64,000 nt of DNA from Escherichia coli. Lineage in GTDB: Bacteria; Pseudomonadota; Gammaproteobacteria; Enterobacterales; Enterobacteriaceae. Positions within the stretch are counted from its first letter, which is position 1, and each line of letters starts with the position of its first letter. Positions 46,394 through 51,698 of the stretch are shown here, piece by piece. The position numbers and the translations under genes are program-made. The stretch lies in assembly GCF_003018255.1 (NCBI RefSeq), contig NZ_CP027440.1. One strand, 5' to 3'. The notes below the pieces were generated by a model, which made no database searches, had not been told where the DNA came from, and was given only the letters and a program-made list of their open reading frames with translations.

Positions 46394-46538
46394 GGGCCAT
46401 CCTCTGTGCAAACAAGTGTCTCAATGGTACGTTTGGTATGGCATTAAAAGCAAGCAGACAGAACCGTTCTGATTGTTGTATGCATGTTTTTTTTATGCTT
46501 TCCTTAAGAACAACTCACCCCTTGAAGGAATAACCAGT

Positions 46539-47111
46539 TTGACACTGTCATCGCAACATTATCTGGTGATCACTGCGTTGGGTGCCGATCGCCCTGGAAT
46601 TGTGAACACCATCACCCGTCATGTCAGTAGTTGCGGCTGTAATATTGAAGACAGTCGCCTGGCGATGCTGGGAGAAGAGTTCACGTTTATCATGCTGCTT
46701 TCCGGTTCATGGAATGCCATTACTCTGATTGAATCAACGTTACCGTTGAAAGGTGCCGAGCTGGATCTTTTAATCGTGATGAAGCGCACGACGGCGCGTC
46801 CGCGTCCGCCAATGCCAGCATCTGTCTGGGTTCAGGTCGATGTGGCAGACTCCCCGCATTTAATTGAACGCTTCACAGCACTTTTCGACGCGCATCATAT
46901 GAACATTGCGGAGCTGGTGTCGCGCACGCAACCTGCTGAAAATGAACGGGCTGCGCAGTTGCATATTCAGATAACCGCCCACAGCCCCGCATCTGCGGAC
47001 GCAGCAAATATTGAGCAAGCATTCAAAGCCCTATGTACAGAACTCAATGCACAAGGCAGTATTAACGTCGTCAATTATTCCCAACATGATGAACAGGATG
47101 GAGTTAAGTAA
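46539..47111 (+). CDS. gcvR: glycine cleavage system transcriptional repressor GcvR (tandem ACT domains)
   Basis: ORF 46473..47111; K-12-length product (190 aa, MTLSSQHYLVITALGADRPGIV) requires a TTG start at 46539; start uncertain. Confidence 0.8.
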   Translation: MTLSSQHYLVITALGADRPGIVNTITRHVSSCGCNIEDSRLAMLGEEFTFIMLLSGSWNAITLIESTLPLKGAELDLLIVMKRTTARPRPPMPASVWVQVDVADSPHLIERFTALFDAHHMNIAELVSRTQPAENERAAQLHIQITAHSPASADAANIEQAFKALCTELNAQGSINVVNYSQHDEQDGVK

Positions 47112-47581
47112 TGAATCCACTGAAAGCCGGTGATATCGCACCGAAATTTAGCTTGCCGGATCAAGACGGAGAACAAGTTAATTTGACCGACTTCCAGGGA
47201 CAGCGTGTTCTGGTTTATTTCTACCCGAAAGCCATGACCCCCGGCTGTACCGTACAGGCCTGCGGCTTACGCGATAACATGGATGAGTTGAAAAAAGCGG
47301 GCGTTGATGTGCTGGGTATCAGCACCGATAAACCCGAAAAACTCTCCCGTTTTGCGGAAAAAGAGCTGCTTAACTTTACGCTCCTGTCTGATGAGGACCA
47401 CCAGGTGTGCGAACAATTCGGCGTCTGGGGTGAAAAGTCCTTCATGGGCAAAACCTACGATGGTATTCATCGCATCAGCTTCCTGATTGACGCTGATGGC
47501 AAAATCGAACATGTCTTTGACGATTTCAAAACCAGCAATCACCACGACGTTGTGCTGAACTGGCTGAAAGAACACGCCTGA
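47111..47581 (+). CDS. bcp: thiol peroxidase / bacterioferritin comigratory protein (peroxiredoxin)
   Basis: 156-aa ORF; peroxiredoxin active site (TPGCT); start ATG shares one base with gcvR stop. Confidence 0.94.
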   Translation: MNPLKAGDIAPKFSLPDQDGEQVNLTDFQGQRVLVYFYPKAMTPGCTVQACGLRDNMDELKKAGVDVLGISTDKPEKLSRFAEKELLNFTLLSDEDHQVCEQFGVWGEKSFMGKTYDGIHRISFLIDADGKIEHVFDDFKTSNHHDVVLNWLKEHA

Positions 47582-47598
47582 TTACTTTGCTCCATTCC

Positions 47599-47625
47599 GT
47601 GCTGGCTGCGCTTGCGGCCAGCACA
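47599..47625. other. inverted repeat (gtgctggc-n10-gccagcac) in bcp-perM convergent spacer
   Basis: 8-bp GC-rich stem; no clear U-tract on either strand. Confidence 0.4.
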
Positions 47626-47679
47626 TCTCACATCTTCTCACTGCCCTGCAACACTCGTTTCAAATTTTTTCGCTGAAGG

Positions 47680-48741
47680 TCAGTCTTGCGCGATTTGCCC
47701 ATCGGGCCAGGCGTGAATCACGGCTTTGATCAGCGTCGCCAATGGAATGGCGAAGAATACGCCCCAGAATCCCCACAAACCACCGAAGATCACTACTGAT
47801 AAAATAATGACCAGCGGATGCAGGTTAACCGCTTCGGAGAACAACACAGGTACTAACAGGTTGCCGTCCAGCGCCTGAATGATCAGATACACCGCGAAGC
47901 AGCTCCAGAATTCCGTGCCAGCACCAAACTGGAATAGCGCCACGCCAACCACCGGAATGGTCACCACAAATGCACCAATGTACGGAATAAGTACCGAGAA
48001 GCCGACCAGCACCGCCAGCAGCAGCGAATAGTTCAGCCCGAAGAGTAAGAATCCCAGCCAGGTGGCAATCCCCACCACGATCATCTCCAGCACTTTGCCG
48101 CGGATATAGTTGGTGATTTGTTGATTCATCTCCTTCCACACCTGTCCTGCCAGTCCACGGTTACGCGGCAGCACCCGGCGAACGGCGTTCAGCATCTGCT
48201 CTTTGTCTTTCAGCAGGAAGAAGACCATCAATGGTACCAGCACCAGATAGACGGCAATGGTCAGCAAACCGACCAGCGAGGCGAGGGAAATTTTCACCAC
48301 CGAATCGCCCATGGTCAGCATCCGACTGCGCATATTTTCGGCCATTGCATCAATAATGCCCGCATCCATTAACGCCGGATAGCGGCGCGGCAACGTGGCG
48401 GCAAAGTCAGAAAGCTTATTGAGCATCCCCGGCATATCGCGGATTAAGTAGATGCCCTGCTGCCAGGCGATAGGCAGTACCACGAACGCCATCAGTAGCA
48501 ATATACCGACGAAAACCACCAATACAATCGACGTCGCCCAGCGGCGGGAGCAGCCAATAGATTGCAGGCGCACGGTTGGCCATTCCAGCAAATAGGCCAG
48601 CACAATAGCCACCAACAGCGGAGCAAGCAGGCCACTAAAGAAAAAGATAATGCCAAATCCGGCAACTAAAATAACCAGCAAGGCAATCGCTTCCGGGTCG
48701 CTAAAACGGCGGCGATACCATTGCATCAACATTTCGAGCAT
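47680..48741 (-). CDS. perM: AI-2E/PerM family permease
   Basis: 353-aa polytopic membrane ORF. Confidence 0.9.
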   Translation of the reverse strand: MLEMLMQWYRRRFSDPEAIALLVILVAGFGIIFFFSGLLAPLLVAIVLAYLLEWPTVRLQSIGCSRRWATSIVLVVFVGILLLMAFVVLPIAWQQGIYLIRDMPGMLNKLSDFAATLPRRYPALMDAGIIDAMAENMRSRMLTMGDSVVKISLASLVGLLTIAVYLVLVPLMVFFLLKDKEQMLNAVRRVLPRNRGLAGQVWKEMNQQITNYIRGKVLEMIVVGIATWLGFLLFGLNYSLLLAVLVGFSVLIPYIGAFVVTIPVVGVALFQFGAGTEFWSCFAVYLIIQALDGNLLVPVLFSEAVNLHPLVIILSVVIFGGLWGFWGVFFAIPLATLIKAVIHAWPDGQIAQD

Positions 48742-48953
48742 ACAGACCTTCCCTGAACCTCAAGAGCGGGATTGCGATCCGCAATTGTATCGAAATGCCA
48801 CAAAAAAGACTTCGCTTTTTATGACGGATTCAGGAAACTGAAAAGTCATTTGAGTGGGCTAATCTTCGCCGTTACACTCAAAGGCGGCGCGGTGGGAACG
48901 ATATTTCACAGTATCGGTCAAATGACTATCTCCAGAAATACAGGATAGAGGTT

Positions 48954-50417
48954 ATGTTCAGGCAGTTGAAAAAAAACCTGGTTGCAACCCTCATTGCTGC
49001 TATGACCATTGGTCAGGTAGCCCCGGCGTTTGCCGACAGCGCAGACACCTTGCCGGATATGGGAACCTCCGCAGGAAGCACACTTTCCATTGGTCAGGAA
49101 ATGCAGATGGGCGACTATTATGTCCGCCAGCTACGCGGCAGCGCGCCGTTAATTAATGATCCGCTGTTAACGCAATACATTAATTCGCTAGGAATGCGTC
49201 TGGTTTCGCATGCCAATTCGGTTAAGACACCGTTTCATTTCTTTCTGATCAACAACGATGAAATTAACGCCTTTGCTTTCTTTGGCGGCAACGTGGTGCT
49301 GCACTCTGCCCTGTTCCGTTATTCCGATAACGAAAGTCAACTGGCTTCAGTTATGGCGCACGAAATCTCCCACGTCACCCAACGTCACCTGGCGCGAGCG
49401 ATGGAAGATCAGCAGCGCAGCGCGCCGCTGACCTGGGTCGGCGCGTTAGGTTCTATTTTACTGGCGATGGCCAGTCCGCAGGCGGGGATGGCTGCGCTGA
49501 CCGGTACACTGGCGGGAACGCGCCAGGGGATGATCAGCTTCACCCAGCAAAATGAACAGGAAGCGGACCGCATTGGTATTCAGGTGCTGCAACGCTCAGG
49601 ATTCGATCCGCAGGCGATGCCGACCTTCCTCGAAAAATTACTCGATCAGGCGCGTTACTCCTCGCGTCCGCCGGAAATTTTATTGACTCACCCGTTGCCG
49701 GAAAGTCGTCTGGCAGATGCCCGCAACCGTGCTAATCAGATGCGCCCGATGGTGGTGCAGTCGTCGGAAGATTTCTATCTGGCGAAAGCGCGCACACTGG
49801 GGATGTATAATTCCGGACGTAACCAGCTCACCAGTGATTTGCTGGATGAATGGGCGAAAGGAAACGTTCGTCAGCAACGAGCGGCGCAATATGGTCGTGC
49901 TTTACAGGCGATGGAAGCCAATAAATACGACGAGGCGCGTAAAACGCTGCAACCGTTACTGGCGGCAGAACCTGGCAACGCATGGTATCTCGATCTGGCT
50001 ACTGATATCGATCTTGGGCAAAACAAAGCCAATGAGGCGATCAATCGTCTGAAAAATGCCCGCGATTTACGCACCAATCCGGTGTTGCAGCTCAACCTGG
50101 CGAACGCTTATCTGCAAGGCGGTCAACCACAAGAAGCGGCCAATATTCTGAATCGCTACACCTTTAATAATAAAGATGACAGCAACGGCTGGGATTTGCT
50201 GGCACAGGCGGAAGCCGCGCTAAATAACCGCGATCAGGAGCTGGCTGCGCGAGCAGAAGGTTATGCGCTCGCCGGACGACTCGATCAGGCCATTTCGCTG
50301 TTGAGTAGCGCCAGTTCGCAGGTGAAATTAGGCAGCCTGCAACAAGCGCGTTACGATGCGCGCATCGACCAGTTGCGCCAGCTGCAGGAACGCTTTAAGC
50401 CTTATACCAAGATGTAA
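48954..50417 (+). CDS. bepA: beta-barrel assembly-enhancing protease BepA (M48 peptidase + TPR)
   Basis: 487-aa ORF; signal peptide; HExxH ([10 protein letters not shown]). Confidence 0.93.
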
Positions 50418-50437
50418 TTCGCATTAAAGGAAGAACA

Positions 50438-50797
50438 ATGACCAAACAGGTAAAAATCTACCATAACCCACGCTGTTCAAAGAGCCGGGAAACGCTGAAC
50501 CTGCTGAAAGAAAACGGCGTGGAGCCAGAAGTGGTGCTCTACCTTGAGACACCCGCCGATGCGGCAACGCTGCGTGATTTGCTGAAAATGCTGGGGATGA
50601 ATAGCGCTCGTGAATTGATGCGCCAGAAAGAGGATCTTTATAAAGAACTGAACCTGGCTGACAGTTCGCTTAGCGAAGAGGCGCTGATTCAGGCAATGGT
50701 GGATAATCCGAAGCTAATGGAGCGCCCGATTGTGGTCGCGAATGGCAAAGCGCGGATTGGTCGTCCACCGGAGCAGGTACTGGAAATCGTGGGTTAA
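50438..50797 (+). CDS. yfgD: ArsC-family arsenate reductase-like protein YfgD
   Basis: 119-aa ORF; N-terminal Cys (YHNPRCSKSR). Confidence 0.9.
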   Translation: MTKQVKIYHNPRCSKSRETLNLLKENGVEPEVVLYLETPADAATLRDLLKMLGMNSARELMRQKEDLYKELNLADSSLSEEALIQAMVDNPKLMERPIVVANGKARIGRPPEQVLEIVG

Positions 50798-50827
50798 GAA
50801 GTGCTCCATCGCTAGTTGAAGCACATT

Positions 50828-50860
50828 GCCGGATGCGACGCTTGCCGCGTCTTATCCGGC
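50828..50860. repeat. REP element (gccggatgcgacgcttgccgcgtcttatccggc)
   Basis: Canonical REP palindrome between convergent yfgD and hda. Confidence 0.8.
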
Positions 50861-50902
50861 CGACGAATACTATGGGTGCATATCCGACAATAAACGTCTT
50901 GT

Positions 50903-51604
50903 CTACAGTTTCAGAATTTCTTTCACAAACGGAATGGTCAGCTTACGTTGCGCGGTAATCGACGCACGATCCAACTGATCCAACGTCATAAATAACGTGC
51001 GCATCTCTCTGTCGAGCCGCTTCAGCAAGAAACGCCCCACATCTTCCGGCAGTTCAAAACCACGCAAACGCGCGCGTAACTGTAGCGCCTGCAACTTATC
51101 TTCATCAGAAAGTGGCTGCAATTTGTAGATCTGCCCCCAGTCGAGACGCGACGCGAGATCCGGTAATCCAAGATTCAACTGCCGCGGTGGACGATCGCCG
51201 GTGATTAACAACCGTGTTTTGCCCGATTCCAGAATTCGATTGTAGAGATCGAAAATCGCCATCTCCCACAACTCATCGCCTGCAATACACTCAATGTTGT
51301 CGATACAGACCAGCGACAAATGCTCCATACCGTCGAGCACTTCCGGAACAAACCAGGTGCGTTTATCCAGCGGGACATAGCCCACCGCATCGCCACGCTG
51401 CGACAATTCCGCGCAAGCCGCGTGCAGCAGATGGCTGCGCCCCGCGCCTTCGCGTGCCCAGAGATAGATGTAACCGCTATGTTCCTGACGCAGCACGTTT
51501 TGCAGCGCGGCCAGTAAAGAGGAGTTATCCCCCGGCCAGAAACTTGCAAAGGTTTCGTCGTCAGGAAGATAAAGTGGCAAAGAGAGCTGTGCCGGTGTGT
51601 TCAG
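50903..51604 (-). CDS. hda: DnaA-inactivating protein Hda (RIDA)
   Basis: ORF 50903..51649; mature 233-aa protein ([18 protein letters not shown]...) recalled to initiate at a CTG, which falls at 51604; AAA+ box. Confidence 0.85.
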
Positions 51605-51698
51605 AGATACCTCAACCAGGATTTCACAAAATCGCGAGAAGTTTACCACAGAATCCCATGATGTTTGAACCGGGCAGCAACACTGCCCGGTCGGTACA

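What the first reader, a model, noticed from the sequence alone, without database searches (positions are those of the whole stretch)
46473..51649. Probable non-ATG initiation at gcvR (TTG) and hda (CTG)
The ORF track gives longer N-terminally extended products for both genes. For gcvR, the 190-aa product I recall (MTLSSQ...) requires a TTG start at 46539. For hda, the mature 233-aa protein (NTPAQ...) has been reported to start at a CTG, which would be at 51604. Automated callers will usually pick the wrong starts here.
Basis: partly seen in the sequence, partly recalled or inferred. Interest (0 to 1): 0.18.

Follow-up and report, generated by a model that had tools for sequence, protein, structure and literature searches.

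The report
Known non-ATG starts of gcvR, hda

Summary
The window is E. coli chromosome (dapA-gcvR-bcp-perM-bepA-arsC-hda-uraA).

**Observation.** The coordinates are exact. The maximal ORFs run from TTG 46473 (212 aa) and GTG 51649 on the minus strand (248 aa). The proposed in-frame starts are TTG 46539 (190 aa, MTLSSQ…) and CTG 51604 (233 aa, MNTPAQ…).

**Annotation and literature.** RefSeq/PGAP and K-12 MG1655 annotate exactly these starts. [quoted passage not shown] Tetracycline ribosome profiling puts the initiation signal at that site.

**My own evidence agrees.**
- CTG is invariant in 81 of 81 Enterobacteriaceae loci. In 46 of them an upstream in-frame stop leaves no ATG/GTG/TTG option.
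- TTG is present in 43 of 44 gcvR loci, and 10 of 41 have no alternative.
- Codon periodicity starts exactly at both codons, upstream indels break the frame, and the best Shine-Dalgarno match sits before each proposed start.

The upstream extensions start with TTG and GTG, not ATG. The claim that callers get it wrong holds for hda with ab initio callers (the 248- and 225-aa forms are widespread), but not for PGAP and hardly for gcvR.

**Verdict:** correct, already known, low interest.

The parts
46539..47111 (+). gcvR coding sequence (190 aa plus stop), glycine cleavage system transcriptional repressor
   Evidence: RefSeq CDS of 573 nt maps to window 46539, and the K-12 gene b2479 has the same length. 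NCBIfam equivalog NF008612 aligns model positions 1-189 to residues 23-211 of the 212-aa ORF, so the model begins exactly at this TTG.
46539..46541 (+). TTG initiation codon of gcvR
   Evidence: TTG is at the aligned position in 43 of 44 loci; the one exception is a 1-nt frameshift in one assembly. In 10 of 41 non-redundant loci an in-frame stop lies upstream with no ATG/GTG/TTG in between. Codon-position entropy is 0.31/0.13/1.10 downstream against 0.71/0.76/0.79 upstream.
46525..46529 (+). Shine-Dalgarno element AAGGA of gcvR, 9 nt before the TTG
   Evidence: The anti-SD duplex is -5.7 kcal/mol here, against -1.6, +0.2 and +1.5 for the other candidate starts. AGGAA is invariant in the 14-genus alignment.
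46473..46538 (+). Non-coding 5' region of gcvR that the ORF track reads as a 22-codon N-terminal extension; it lies in the divergent dapA-gcvR promoter region
   Evidence: There is no codon periodicity. The distance from the conserved TATGCTTTCC motif to the TTG varies (34, 35, 36 and 39 nt), which breaks the frame. The stretch is not covered by the family model or by the V. cholerae GcvR structure 1U8S.
50903..51604 (-). hda coding sequence (233 aa plus stop), DnaA inactivator Hda
   Evidence: RefSeq CDS of 702 nt maps to window 51604, and K-12 b2496 has the same length. The PDB 5X06 construct is a tag followed by MNTPAQ…. Pfam Bac_DnaA and Hda_lid both match.
51602..51604 (-). CTG initiation codon of hda
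   Evidence: [quoted passage not shown] The tetracycline ribosome-profiling signal is at this site. CTG is present in 83 of 83 loci. In 46 of 81 loci no canonical start is possible upstream. The 36 nt around it are identical in 5415 of 5422 E. coli records.
51609..51614 (-). Shine-Dalgarno element TGAGGT of hda; GAGG is followed by a 5-nt spacer and then the CTG
   Evidence: The anti-SD duplex is -6.9 kcal/mol, against -4.0 for GTG 51649 and -1.7 for the downstream TTG; only about 3-7% of random 20-mers from the window do as well. GAGGT is invariant in 16 genera and is retained in other Enterobacterales families.
51605..51649 (-). Non-coding leader of hda that older annotation (U00096.2) and ab initio callers read as a 15-codon extension from GTG 51649
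   Evidence: Upstream entropy is flat at 1.23/1.32/1.21, against 0.16/0.06/0.72 downstream. The distance from the conserved upstream motif to the CTG ranges from 33 to 39 nt and falls in all three phases. The K-12 annotation moved the start by 45 nt between 2006 and 2014.
51640..51650 (-). Conserved TGTGGTAAACT, an extended -10-like motif and possible hda promoter; the former GTG 'start' (51649-51647) lies inside it
   Evidence: The pattern TG.TA.ACT (or TG.TA.A.T) was found in 81 of 81 loci, 33-39 nt before the CTG, and is nearly invariant in the 16-genus alignment. Promoter function is an inference: the consensus scan, which requires a -35 element, called nothing here.

Best explanation
Both genes are ordinary, well-known E. 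coli genes whose translation starts at a non-AUG codon read by initiator tRNA. The gcvR gene starts at UUG (46539), which sits 9 nt after an AAGGA Shine-Dalgarno element. The hda gene starts at the near-cognate CUG (51604, minus strand), which sits 5 nt after a GAGG Shine-Dalgarno core (UGAGGU). The longer ORFs (from TTG 46473 and GTG 51649) are accidents of open reading frame running into the 5' untranslated and promoter regions. What is shown here: the position of the coding boundary, the Shine-Dalgarno geometry, and the lack of any canonical alternative start in many species. What comes from the literature: the hda CUG start was demonstrated experimentally by Su'etsugu et al. 2008, as cited by EcoGene 3.0, and initiation-site ribosome profiling supports it. 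What is inferred: the weak start codons serve to keep these low-abundance regulators scarce. Hda in particular would be held down this way, since CUG initiates far less efficiently than AUG and is discriminated against by IF3. The strong, strictly conserved Shine-Dalgarno element and the unstructured initiation region would then make the weak codon usable.
For: Annotation:
- RefSeq/PGAP and K-12 MG1655 place the CDS starts exactly at 46539 and 51604.

Literature:
- Nakahigashi 2016 (PMC4909307) Table S3 lists hda as shifted by 45 nt between the 2006 and 2014 annotations, with confirmation code '3. 2014', meaning the signal is at the new site.
- The Hda-clamp crystal structure uses 233-residue numbering with the clamp-binding motif at 6-QLSLPL-11, and its construct begins MNTPAQ after a tag.

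Comparative evidence:
- CTG is present in 83 of 83 hda loci and TTG in 43 of 44 gcvR loci.
- 46 of 81 hda loci and 10 of 41 gcvR loci have an in-frame stop upstream with no ATG/GTG/TTG before the proposed start.
- The next canonical start in hda is codon 9 (TTG, in 43 loci), which lies inside the clamp-binding motif, or codon 11 or later in the rest (most often GTG at codon 37).
- Third-position periodicity begins exactly at the proposed starts, and upstream length variation is not in multiples of 3.
- In Serratia aquatilis and S. symbiotica a 2-nt insertion leaves CTG as the only possible start, with a stop 4 codons upstream.

Initiation signals:
- The Shine-Dalgarno duplex energies are best at the proposed starts.
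- Family models begin at or within two residues of these starts.
- The initiation regions are not more structured than shuffled controls, with z-scores of +0.67 and +1.09.
Against: I could not read either primary experimental paper: Su'etsugu 2008 (PMC2662290) and Ghrist & Stauffer 1998 (PMC107093) are not held. For gcvR, therefore, the experimental basis rests only on my memory that N-terminal sequencing of a GcvR-LacZ fusion identified a UUG start. Some species do have in-frame canonical codons upstream: ATG at -8 in Salmonella and Citrobacter hda, and TTG at -21/-22 in many gcvR loci. Minor longer isoforms in those species, or on read-through transcripts, are therefore not excluded by sequence alone. 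The idea that the weak start codon keeps the protein scarce is inference and was not tested here.
Confidence: 0.95

Rival explanations
1. The long ORFs are the real products: gcvR starts at TTG 46473 (212 aa) and hda starts at GTG 51649 (248 aa).
For: Both are the maximal ORFs. These forms exist in public databases: the 248-aa Hda is on at least 1000 contigs, and the 212-aa GcvR is present in O157:H7 EDL933, UTI89 and Salmonella records. The 2006 K-12 annotation used the hda GTG.
Against: Shine-Dalgarno matches are poor at these codons: -1.6 kcal/mol for TTG 46473 and -4.0 for GTG 51649. The extensions are not conserved as protein: entropy is flat across codon positions, indels shift the frame, and in many species there is an in-frame stop with no start codon after it. 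Family models and solved structures of orthologues do not cover the extensions. The ribosome-profiling signal for hda is at the CTG site. GTG 51649 lies inside a conserved promoter-like motif.
Confidence: 0.02
2. Dual initiation: the annotated starts are the main ones, but a minor longer isoform is also made from the upstream codon. For hda this could occur on uraA read-through transcripts that contain GTG 51649.
For: Nakahigashi et al. report that many E. coli genes show signals at two start sites. GTG 51649 has a modest Shine-Dalgarno-like match of -4.0 kcal/mol. The uraA-hda hairpin has no U-tract and was not called as an intrinsic terminator, so read-through is conceivable.
Against: hda is coded '3. 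2014' (signal at the 2014 site), not '4. multiple'. The extension is not conserved even within Escherichia: one E. coli-labelled genome (L006) has a 1-nt indel that moves the in-frame GTG from -15 to -8.
Confidence: 0.04
3. hda starts at the first canonical codon downstream (TTG at codon 9 of the 233-aa form, giving 225 aa, MPLYLPDD…), as some gene callers output.
For: The 225-aa form is on at least 1000 contigs in public collections.
Against: It would delete most of the QLSLPL clamp-binding motif, which the crystal structure shows bound to the beta clamp. That codon is CTG rather than TTG in many species. There is no Shine-Dalgarno match, with a duplex energy of only -1.7 kcal/mol. The eight codons before it show strong purifying selection with third-position variation.
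Confidence: 0.01

Closest known systems
E. coli K-12 hda (b2496, NP_416991.2; UniProt HDA_ECOLI), the CTG-initiated DnaA inactivator
   Same: The protein is identical over all 233 residues apart from how the initiator codon is translated (tblastn 99.57%, the single difference being L versus M at residue 1). The start codon, the Shine-Dalgarno element and the upstream 60 nt are the same. The CDS length of 702 nt is the same.
   Different: Nothing of substance differs. This is simply the same gene in another E. coli strain.
E. coli K-12 gcvR (b2479, NP_416974.4), the TTG-initiated repressor of the glycine cleavage operon
   Same: The 190-aa protein is identical. The TTG start and the 573-nt CDS are the same.
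   Different: There is one base difference just 5' of the Shine-Dalgarno element: G at 46524 in the window, A in K-12. A 36-nt probe across the site is identical in 1299 E. coli records and has one mismatch in 4125, which is consistent with the window carrying the minority allele.
Other E. coli genes with rare start codons: yfjD (CTG), infC and pcnB (AUU)
   Same: They use a near-cognate initiation codon. yfjD was confirmed by start-codon mutagenesis as the second CTG case. That infC uses AUU for IF3 autoregulation is from my own knowledge.
   Different: No autoregulatory loop through IF3 is known or shown for hda, and none was tested here.

Membership tests
Hda (DnaA-related AAA+ protein of regulatory inactivation of DnaA) | Equivalog-level match to the Hda family models, and the Bac_DnaA ATPase plus Hda_lid domains | tested here: met
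   NF005982 scores 476.6 bits (cutoff 268) and TIGR03420 scores 281.4 bits (cutoff 194.8). PF00308 and PF22688 both match. The sequence is identical to the PDB 5X06 Hda chain.
Hda (DnaA-related AAA+ protein of regulatory inactivation of DnaA) | N-terminal beta-clamp-binding motif QL[SD]LPL close to the N-terminus | tested here: met
   QLSLPL occupies residues 6-11 when counted from the CTG. The motif is described. It is conserved in all 81 loci.
Genes with an experimentally established non-AUG/GUG/UUG (CUG) start | Direct protein or mutational evidence for the start codon | not testable with these tools
   This is reported in the literature: EcoGene 3.0 cites Su'etsugu 2008, and the TetRP signal is at the site. 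The primary paper is not held.
Genes with an experimentally established non-AUG/GUG/UUG (CUG) start | No canonical alternative start, a Shine-Dalgarno element at functional spacing, and the coding signature beginning at the codon | tested here: met
   46 of 81 species have no upstream canonical start. GAGG lies 5 nt upstream with a duplex energy of -6.9 kcal/mol. Periodicity begins at the CTG.
GcvR (tandem ACT-domain repressor of the gcv operon) | Equivalog-level match over the full length, and ACT domains | tested here: met
   NF008612 scores 397 bits (cutoff 267), with model positions 1-189 aligned to residues 23-211 of the long ORF. ACT_6 and ACT match. The V. cholerae GcvR structure 1U8S aligns from its residue 4 to residue 28 of the long ORF.
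GcvR (tandem ACT-domain repressor of the gcv operon) | UUG start shown experimentally | not testable with these tools
   My recollection is that Ghrist & Stauffer 1998 determined this by N-terminal sequencing of a GcvR-LacZ fusion. The paper is not held, so this remains a recollection.

The most novel reading that the evidence does not exclude
The CUG start of hda may not be an E. coli peculiarity. It may be ancestral and fixed across the order Enterobacterales, always 5 nt (7 nt in Serratia) after a GAGG(U/UG) Shine-Dalgarno core. If so, the 235-aa 'MLLNTPAQ' forms that databases give for Yersinia, Erwinia/Pantoea, Hafnia, Dickeya, Xenorhabdus and Proteus would be mis-called. Those forms start at a GTG that is itself part of the GAGGTG Shine-Dalgarno element. 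The NCBIfam model NF005982 has 235 positions, so it includes the two extra residues of those forms. On this reading the near-cognate codon is a selected device that keeps Hda scarce. In support, the codon after GAG in Enterobacteriaceae is GTA, GTC or GTT wherever I could read it in the listing, and I saw no GTG; part of that output was cut and I made no formal count.
Probability: 0.45. Interest if true: 0.3.

Novelty: already known. Interest (0 to 1): 0.08.

Why it matters
It matters little beyond annotation hygiene. The hda CTG start is a textbook-level curiosity, the first chromosomal CTG start shown in E. coli, and both starts are already in RefSeq. The practical point is that ab initio gene callers restricted to ATG/GTG/TTG cannot call hda correctly. 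As a result they have populated databases with 248-aa and 225-aa forms. The 248-aa form adds a spurious N-terminal extension, and the 225-aa form removes most of the clamp-binding motif that Hda needs to work.

Tried and rejected
- I tried to read the primary papers: Su'etsugu 2008 (by DOI and as PMC2662290), Ghrist & Stauffer 1998 (PMC107093), Baxter & Sutton 2012 (PMC3418461), Hecht 2017 and Weaver 2019. None is held.
- Full-text searches for gcvR with UUG, TTG or 'start codon' found nothing relevant. Searches for hda with CUG, or with infC and pcnB, also found nothing useful.
- The consensus promoter and terminator scan found no site in either start region. The promoter readings (TATGCT for gcvR, TGTGGTAAACT for hda) therefore remain inferences from conservation.
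- RNA folding of both initiation regions showed no structure beyond shuffled controls, so a structural switch is not indicated.
- Rfam found nothing in or near 46473-51649.
- Three of twelve contig look-ups failed, for Edwardsiella, Erwinia piriflorinigrans and Izhakiella. Sampling outside Enterobacteriaceae is therefore thin, at 9 loci.
Full report
**What is there.** The window is E. coli chromosome. The ORF list and the sequence show the gene order bamC, dapA (-), gcvR (+), bcp (+), perM/yfgO (-), bepA (+), arsC/yfgD (+), hda (-), uraA (-). A megablast of either gene region hits 5425 of 5426 complete E. coli genomes.

The mechanical ORFs are 46473..47111 (+, 212 aa, TTG start) and 50903..51649 (-, 248 aa, GTG start). 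The in-frame TTG at 46539 gives the 190-aa MTLSSQHYLVITALG… product. The in-frame CTG at 51604 (minus strand) gives the 233-aa [19 protein letters not shown]… product.

Neither extension holds an in-frame ATG.

**What public annotation and the literature say.** In a 100%-identical RefSeq genome, PGAP annotates gcvR as a 573-nt CDS whose first base maps to window 46539. PGAP annotates hda as a 702-nt CDS whose first base maps to window 51604. K-12 MG1655 has the same CDS lengths: b2479 (NP_416974.4) and b2496 (NP_416991.2).

[quoted passage not shown] 2008. It adds that yfjD was the second case.

Nakahigashi et al. 2016 (PMC4909307) list hda among the genes whose start moved between the 2006 and 2014 K-12 annotations. 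The shift is 45 nt, from 747 nt to 702 nt. Their manual inspection of tetracycline-inhibited ribosome profiling is coded '3. 2014', meaning the signal is at the new (CTG) site. [quoted passage not shown]

The Hda-clamp crystal structure paper numbers Hda 1-233, with the clamp-binding motif at 6-QLSLPL-11. The deposited chain (5X06) is a 20-residue tag followed by MNTPAQ….

gcvR does not appear in the Nakahigashi tables of changed or alternative starts. That fits an unchanged, unproblematic TTG start but is weak evidence. I recall that Ghrist & Stauffer 1998 fixed the UUG start by N-terminal sequencing of a GcvR-LacZ fusion. I could not read the paper, so that remains a recollection.

**Independent comparative test.** I fetched 80 hda loci, one per species, all from Enterobacteriaceae and 92-100% identical in protein. 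Wide flanks also captured gcvR in about 40 of them.
- The codon aligned to the hda CTG is CTG in 83 of 83 loci, counting the window and two E. coli RefSeq loci.
- The codon aligned to the gcvR TTG is TTG in 43 of 44 loci. The one exception is a 1-nt frameshift in a Leclercia assembly (L032), and the TTG is still present there.
- Among non-redundant loci, 46 of 81 for hda and 10 of 41 for gcvR have an in-frame stop upstream with no ATG, GTG or TTG between it and the proposed start. In those species no canonical upstream start is possible.
- Downstream, the first canonical in-frame codon of hda is TTG at codon 9 in 43 loci, which lies inside the QLSLPL clamp motif. In the other loci it falls at codon 11 or later, most often GTG at codon 37, which would delete the motif.
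- Mean column entropy by codon position over codons 2-20 is 0.16/0.06/0.72 bits for hda and 0.31/0.13/1.10 for gcvR, a clear third-position signature. The 20 'codons' upstream give 1.23/1.32/1.21 and 0.71/0.76/0.79, with no periodicity.
- The distance from a conserved upstream motif to the start codon varies from 33 to 39 nt for hda and takes the values 34, 35, 36 and 39 nt for gcvR. All three phases occur, so the upstream stretch cannot be coding.
- Within E. coli, the 36 nt spanning the Shine-Dalgarno element, the CTG and four codons are identical in 5415 of 5422 records.

**Initiation signals.** Hybridisation to the 16S 3' end is best at the proposed starts.
- For hda, the CTG 51604 scores -6.9 kcal/mol (UGAGGU, with GAGG 5 nt before the CTG). 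GTG 51649 scores -4.0 and the downstream TTG 51580 scores -1.7. The fourth position scored (51622) turned out to be an ATC, not a start codon.
- For gcvR, TTG 46539 scores -5.7 kcal/mol (AAGGA, 9 nt before the TTG). The alternatives score -1.6, +0.2 and +1.5.
- Random 20-mers from the window average -2.3 kcal/mol. About 7% reach -6 and about 3% reach -7.
- GAGGT and AGGAA are invariant in the multi-genus alignments.
- Neither initiation region folds better than shuffled controls, with z-scores of +0.67 and +1.09. They are open sites, as expected for real starts.

The NCBIfam equivalog for GcvR aligns model position 1 to residue 23 of the long ORF, which is the TTG. The Hda equivalog has 235 positions and aligns from residue 14 of the long ORF, two residues before the CTG. 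The V. cholerae GcvR structure and the Shewanella Hda structure likewise do not cover the extensions.

**How it most likely works.** Initiator tRNA reads UUG and CUG as near-cognate start codons, with much reduced efficiency for CUG. This is established knowledge and was not tested here. A strong, correctly spaced Shine-Dalgarno element in an unstructured leader makes the site usable.

Both products are regulators, and I infer that the weak codons help to keep them scarce. For Hda this inference fits the complete fixation of CTG across about 80 species and 5415 E. coli records, but I did not test it.

A nearly invariant TGTGGTAAACT (window 51650-51640) has the form of an extended -10 element. 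It lies 33-39 nt before the CTG in all 81 loci. The former GTG 'start' (51649-51647) is part of this motif. That would explain why a GTG is so often found there regardless of frame. If the motif is the hda promoter, the GTG would be upstream of the transcript's 5' end. This is inference: the consensus scanner, which requires a -35 element, called nothing.

**The claim about automated callers.** These are the 248-aa form (GTG), the 233-aa form (CTG) and the 225-aa form (downstream TTG). Callers limited to ATG/GTG/TTG do mis-call hda, while PGAP gets it right.

For gcvR, the correct 190-aa form is on at least 1000 contigs. The two 212-aa variants are on 18 and 8 contigs, the 211-aa form on 1, and a 181-aa form on 24.

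**Beyond the finding.** In six loci from four other Enterobacterales families the sequence is GAGGTGCTT-CTG. These are Yersinia, Pantoea, Hafnia, Dickeya, Xenorhabdus and Proteus. Callers there take the in-frame GTG two codons upstream, giving the 235-aa 'MLLNTPAQ' form. That GTG is itself part of the GAGGTG Shine-Dalgarno match and has no Shine-Dalgarno element of its own.

In Serratia aquatilis and S. symbiotica a 2-nt insertion (GAGGTGCTTTT-CTG) puts the GTG out of frame and creates a stop four codons upstream, leaving only the CTG. In Rouxiella the codon is GTA, and the called start is an ATG five codons before the CTG.

The CTG start may thus be order-wide and the 235-aa forms mis-called. 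This is the most novel reading that the data allow. It rests on only nine loci and has no experimental support.

**Verdict.** Both facts are already in the reference annotation and, for hda, explicitly in the literature. Novelty is 'already known' and interest is low.

Noticed in passing
window 47635-47672 (between bcp and perM/yfgO): The 13.8-kb hyfABCDEFGHIJR-focB region that K-12 carries here (record positions 2601002-2614812) is absent from the window. bcp and perM are only about 100 nt apart. The loci from other Enterobacteriaceae genera that held both genes show the same compact gcvR-to-hda spacing of about 5 kb.
   Followed up: partly
window 51640-51650 (-): TGTGGTAAACT, an extended -10-like motif, is conserved in 81 of 81 Enterobacteriaceae loci, 33-39 nt upstream of the hda CTG. 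The formerly annotated GTG start (51649) lies inside it. It is a possible hda-specific promoter directly after uraA. The consensus promoter scan did not call it.
   Followed up: partly
window 51670-51690 (-): A hairpin (CCGGGCAG-TGTTG-CTGCCCGG) lies just after the uraA stop. It is conserved across genera with compensatory changes (CAG/CTG versus CGG/CCG). It is followed by only two T residues, so it is not a canonical intrinsic terminator, and the scan did not call one.
   Followed up: no
L085-L093 (hda loci of Yersinia, Pantoea, Hafnia, Dickeya, Xenorhabdus, Proteus, Rouxiella, Serratia), around locus position 401: Outside Enterobacteriaceae the motif is GAGGTGCTT-CTG, and annotation starts at the GTG that is embedded in the Shine-Dalgarno element (235 aa, MLLNTPAQ). 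Two Serratia species have a 2-nt insertion that leaves CTG as the only possible start. The NCBIfam Hda model NF005982 has 235 positions, so it includes the two extra residues.
   Followed up: partly
window 46524 (+): There is a G/A difference immediately 5' of the gcvR Shine-Dalgarno element: tGAAGGA in the window, tAAAGGA in K-12. A 36-nt probe is identical in 1299 E. coli records and has one mismatch in 4125, which is consistent with the window carrying the minority allele.
   Followed up: partly
window 46486-46504 (+), dapA-gcvR intergenic region: The 19-nt stretch GTTTTTTTTATGCTTTCCT is invariant in 14 genera and lies inside the spurious gcvR 'extension'. It could be the gcvR -10 element (TATGCT) with a T-tract, or an A-tract UP element for the divergent dapA promoter. 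CAATGGTACGTTTGG and AAAAGCAAG further upstream are also (nearly) invariant.
   Followed up: no
window 47109-47113 (+): The gcvR stop codon and the bcp start codon overlap by one base (TAATG), which suggests translational coupling or co-transcription of gcvR and bcp.
   Followed up: no
window 14742-14823 and 14842-14923 (-): Two tandem Rfam naRNA4 (RF02564) matches of 75.5 bits each were the only Rfam gathering-level hits in the 64-kb window.
   Followed up: no
L032 (Leclercia adecarboxylata NCTC13032), gcvR near locus positions 12990-13010: A one-base insertion (ggttattcact versus ggttatcact) shifts the gcvR frame after codon 10. It is probably an assembly error and explains the single non-TTG call in the survey.
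   Followed up: no
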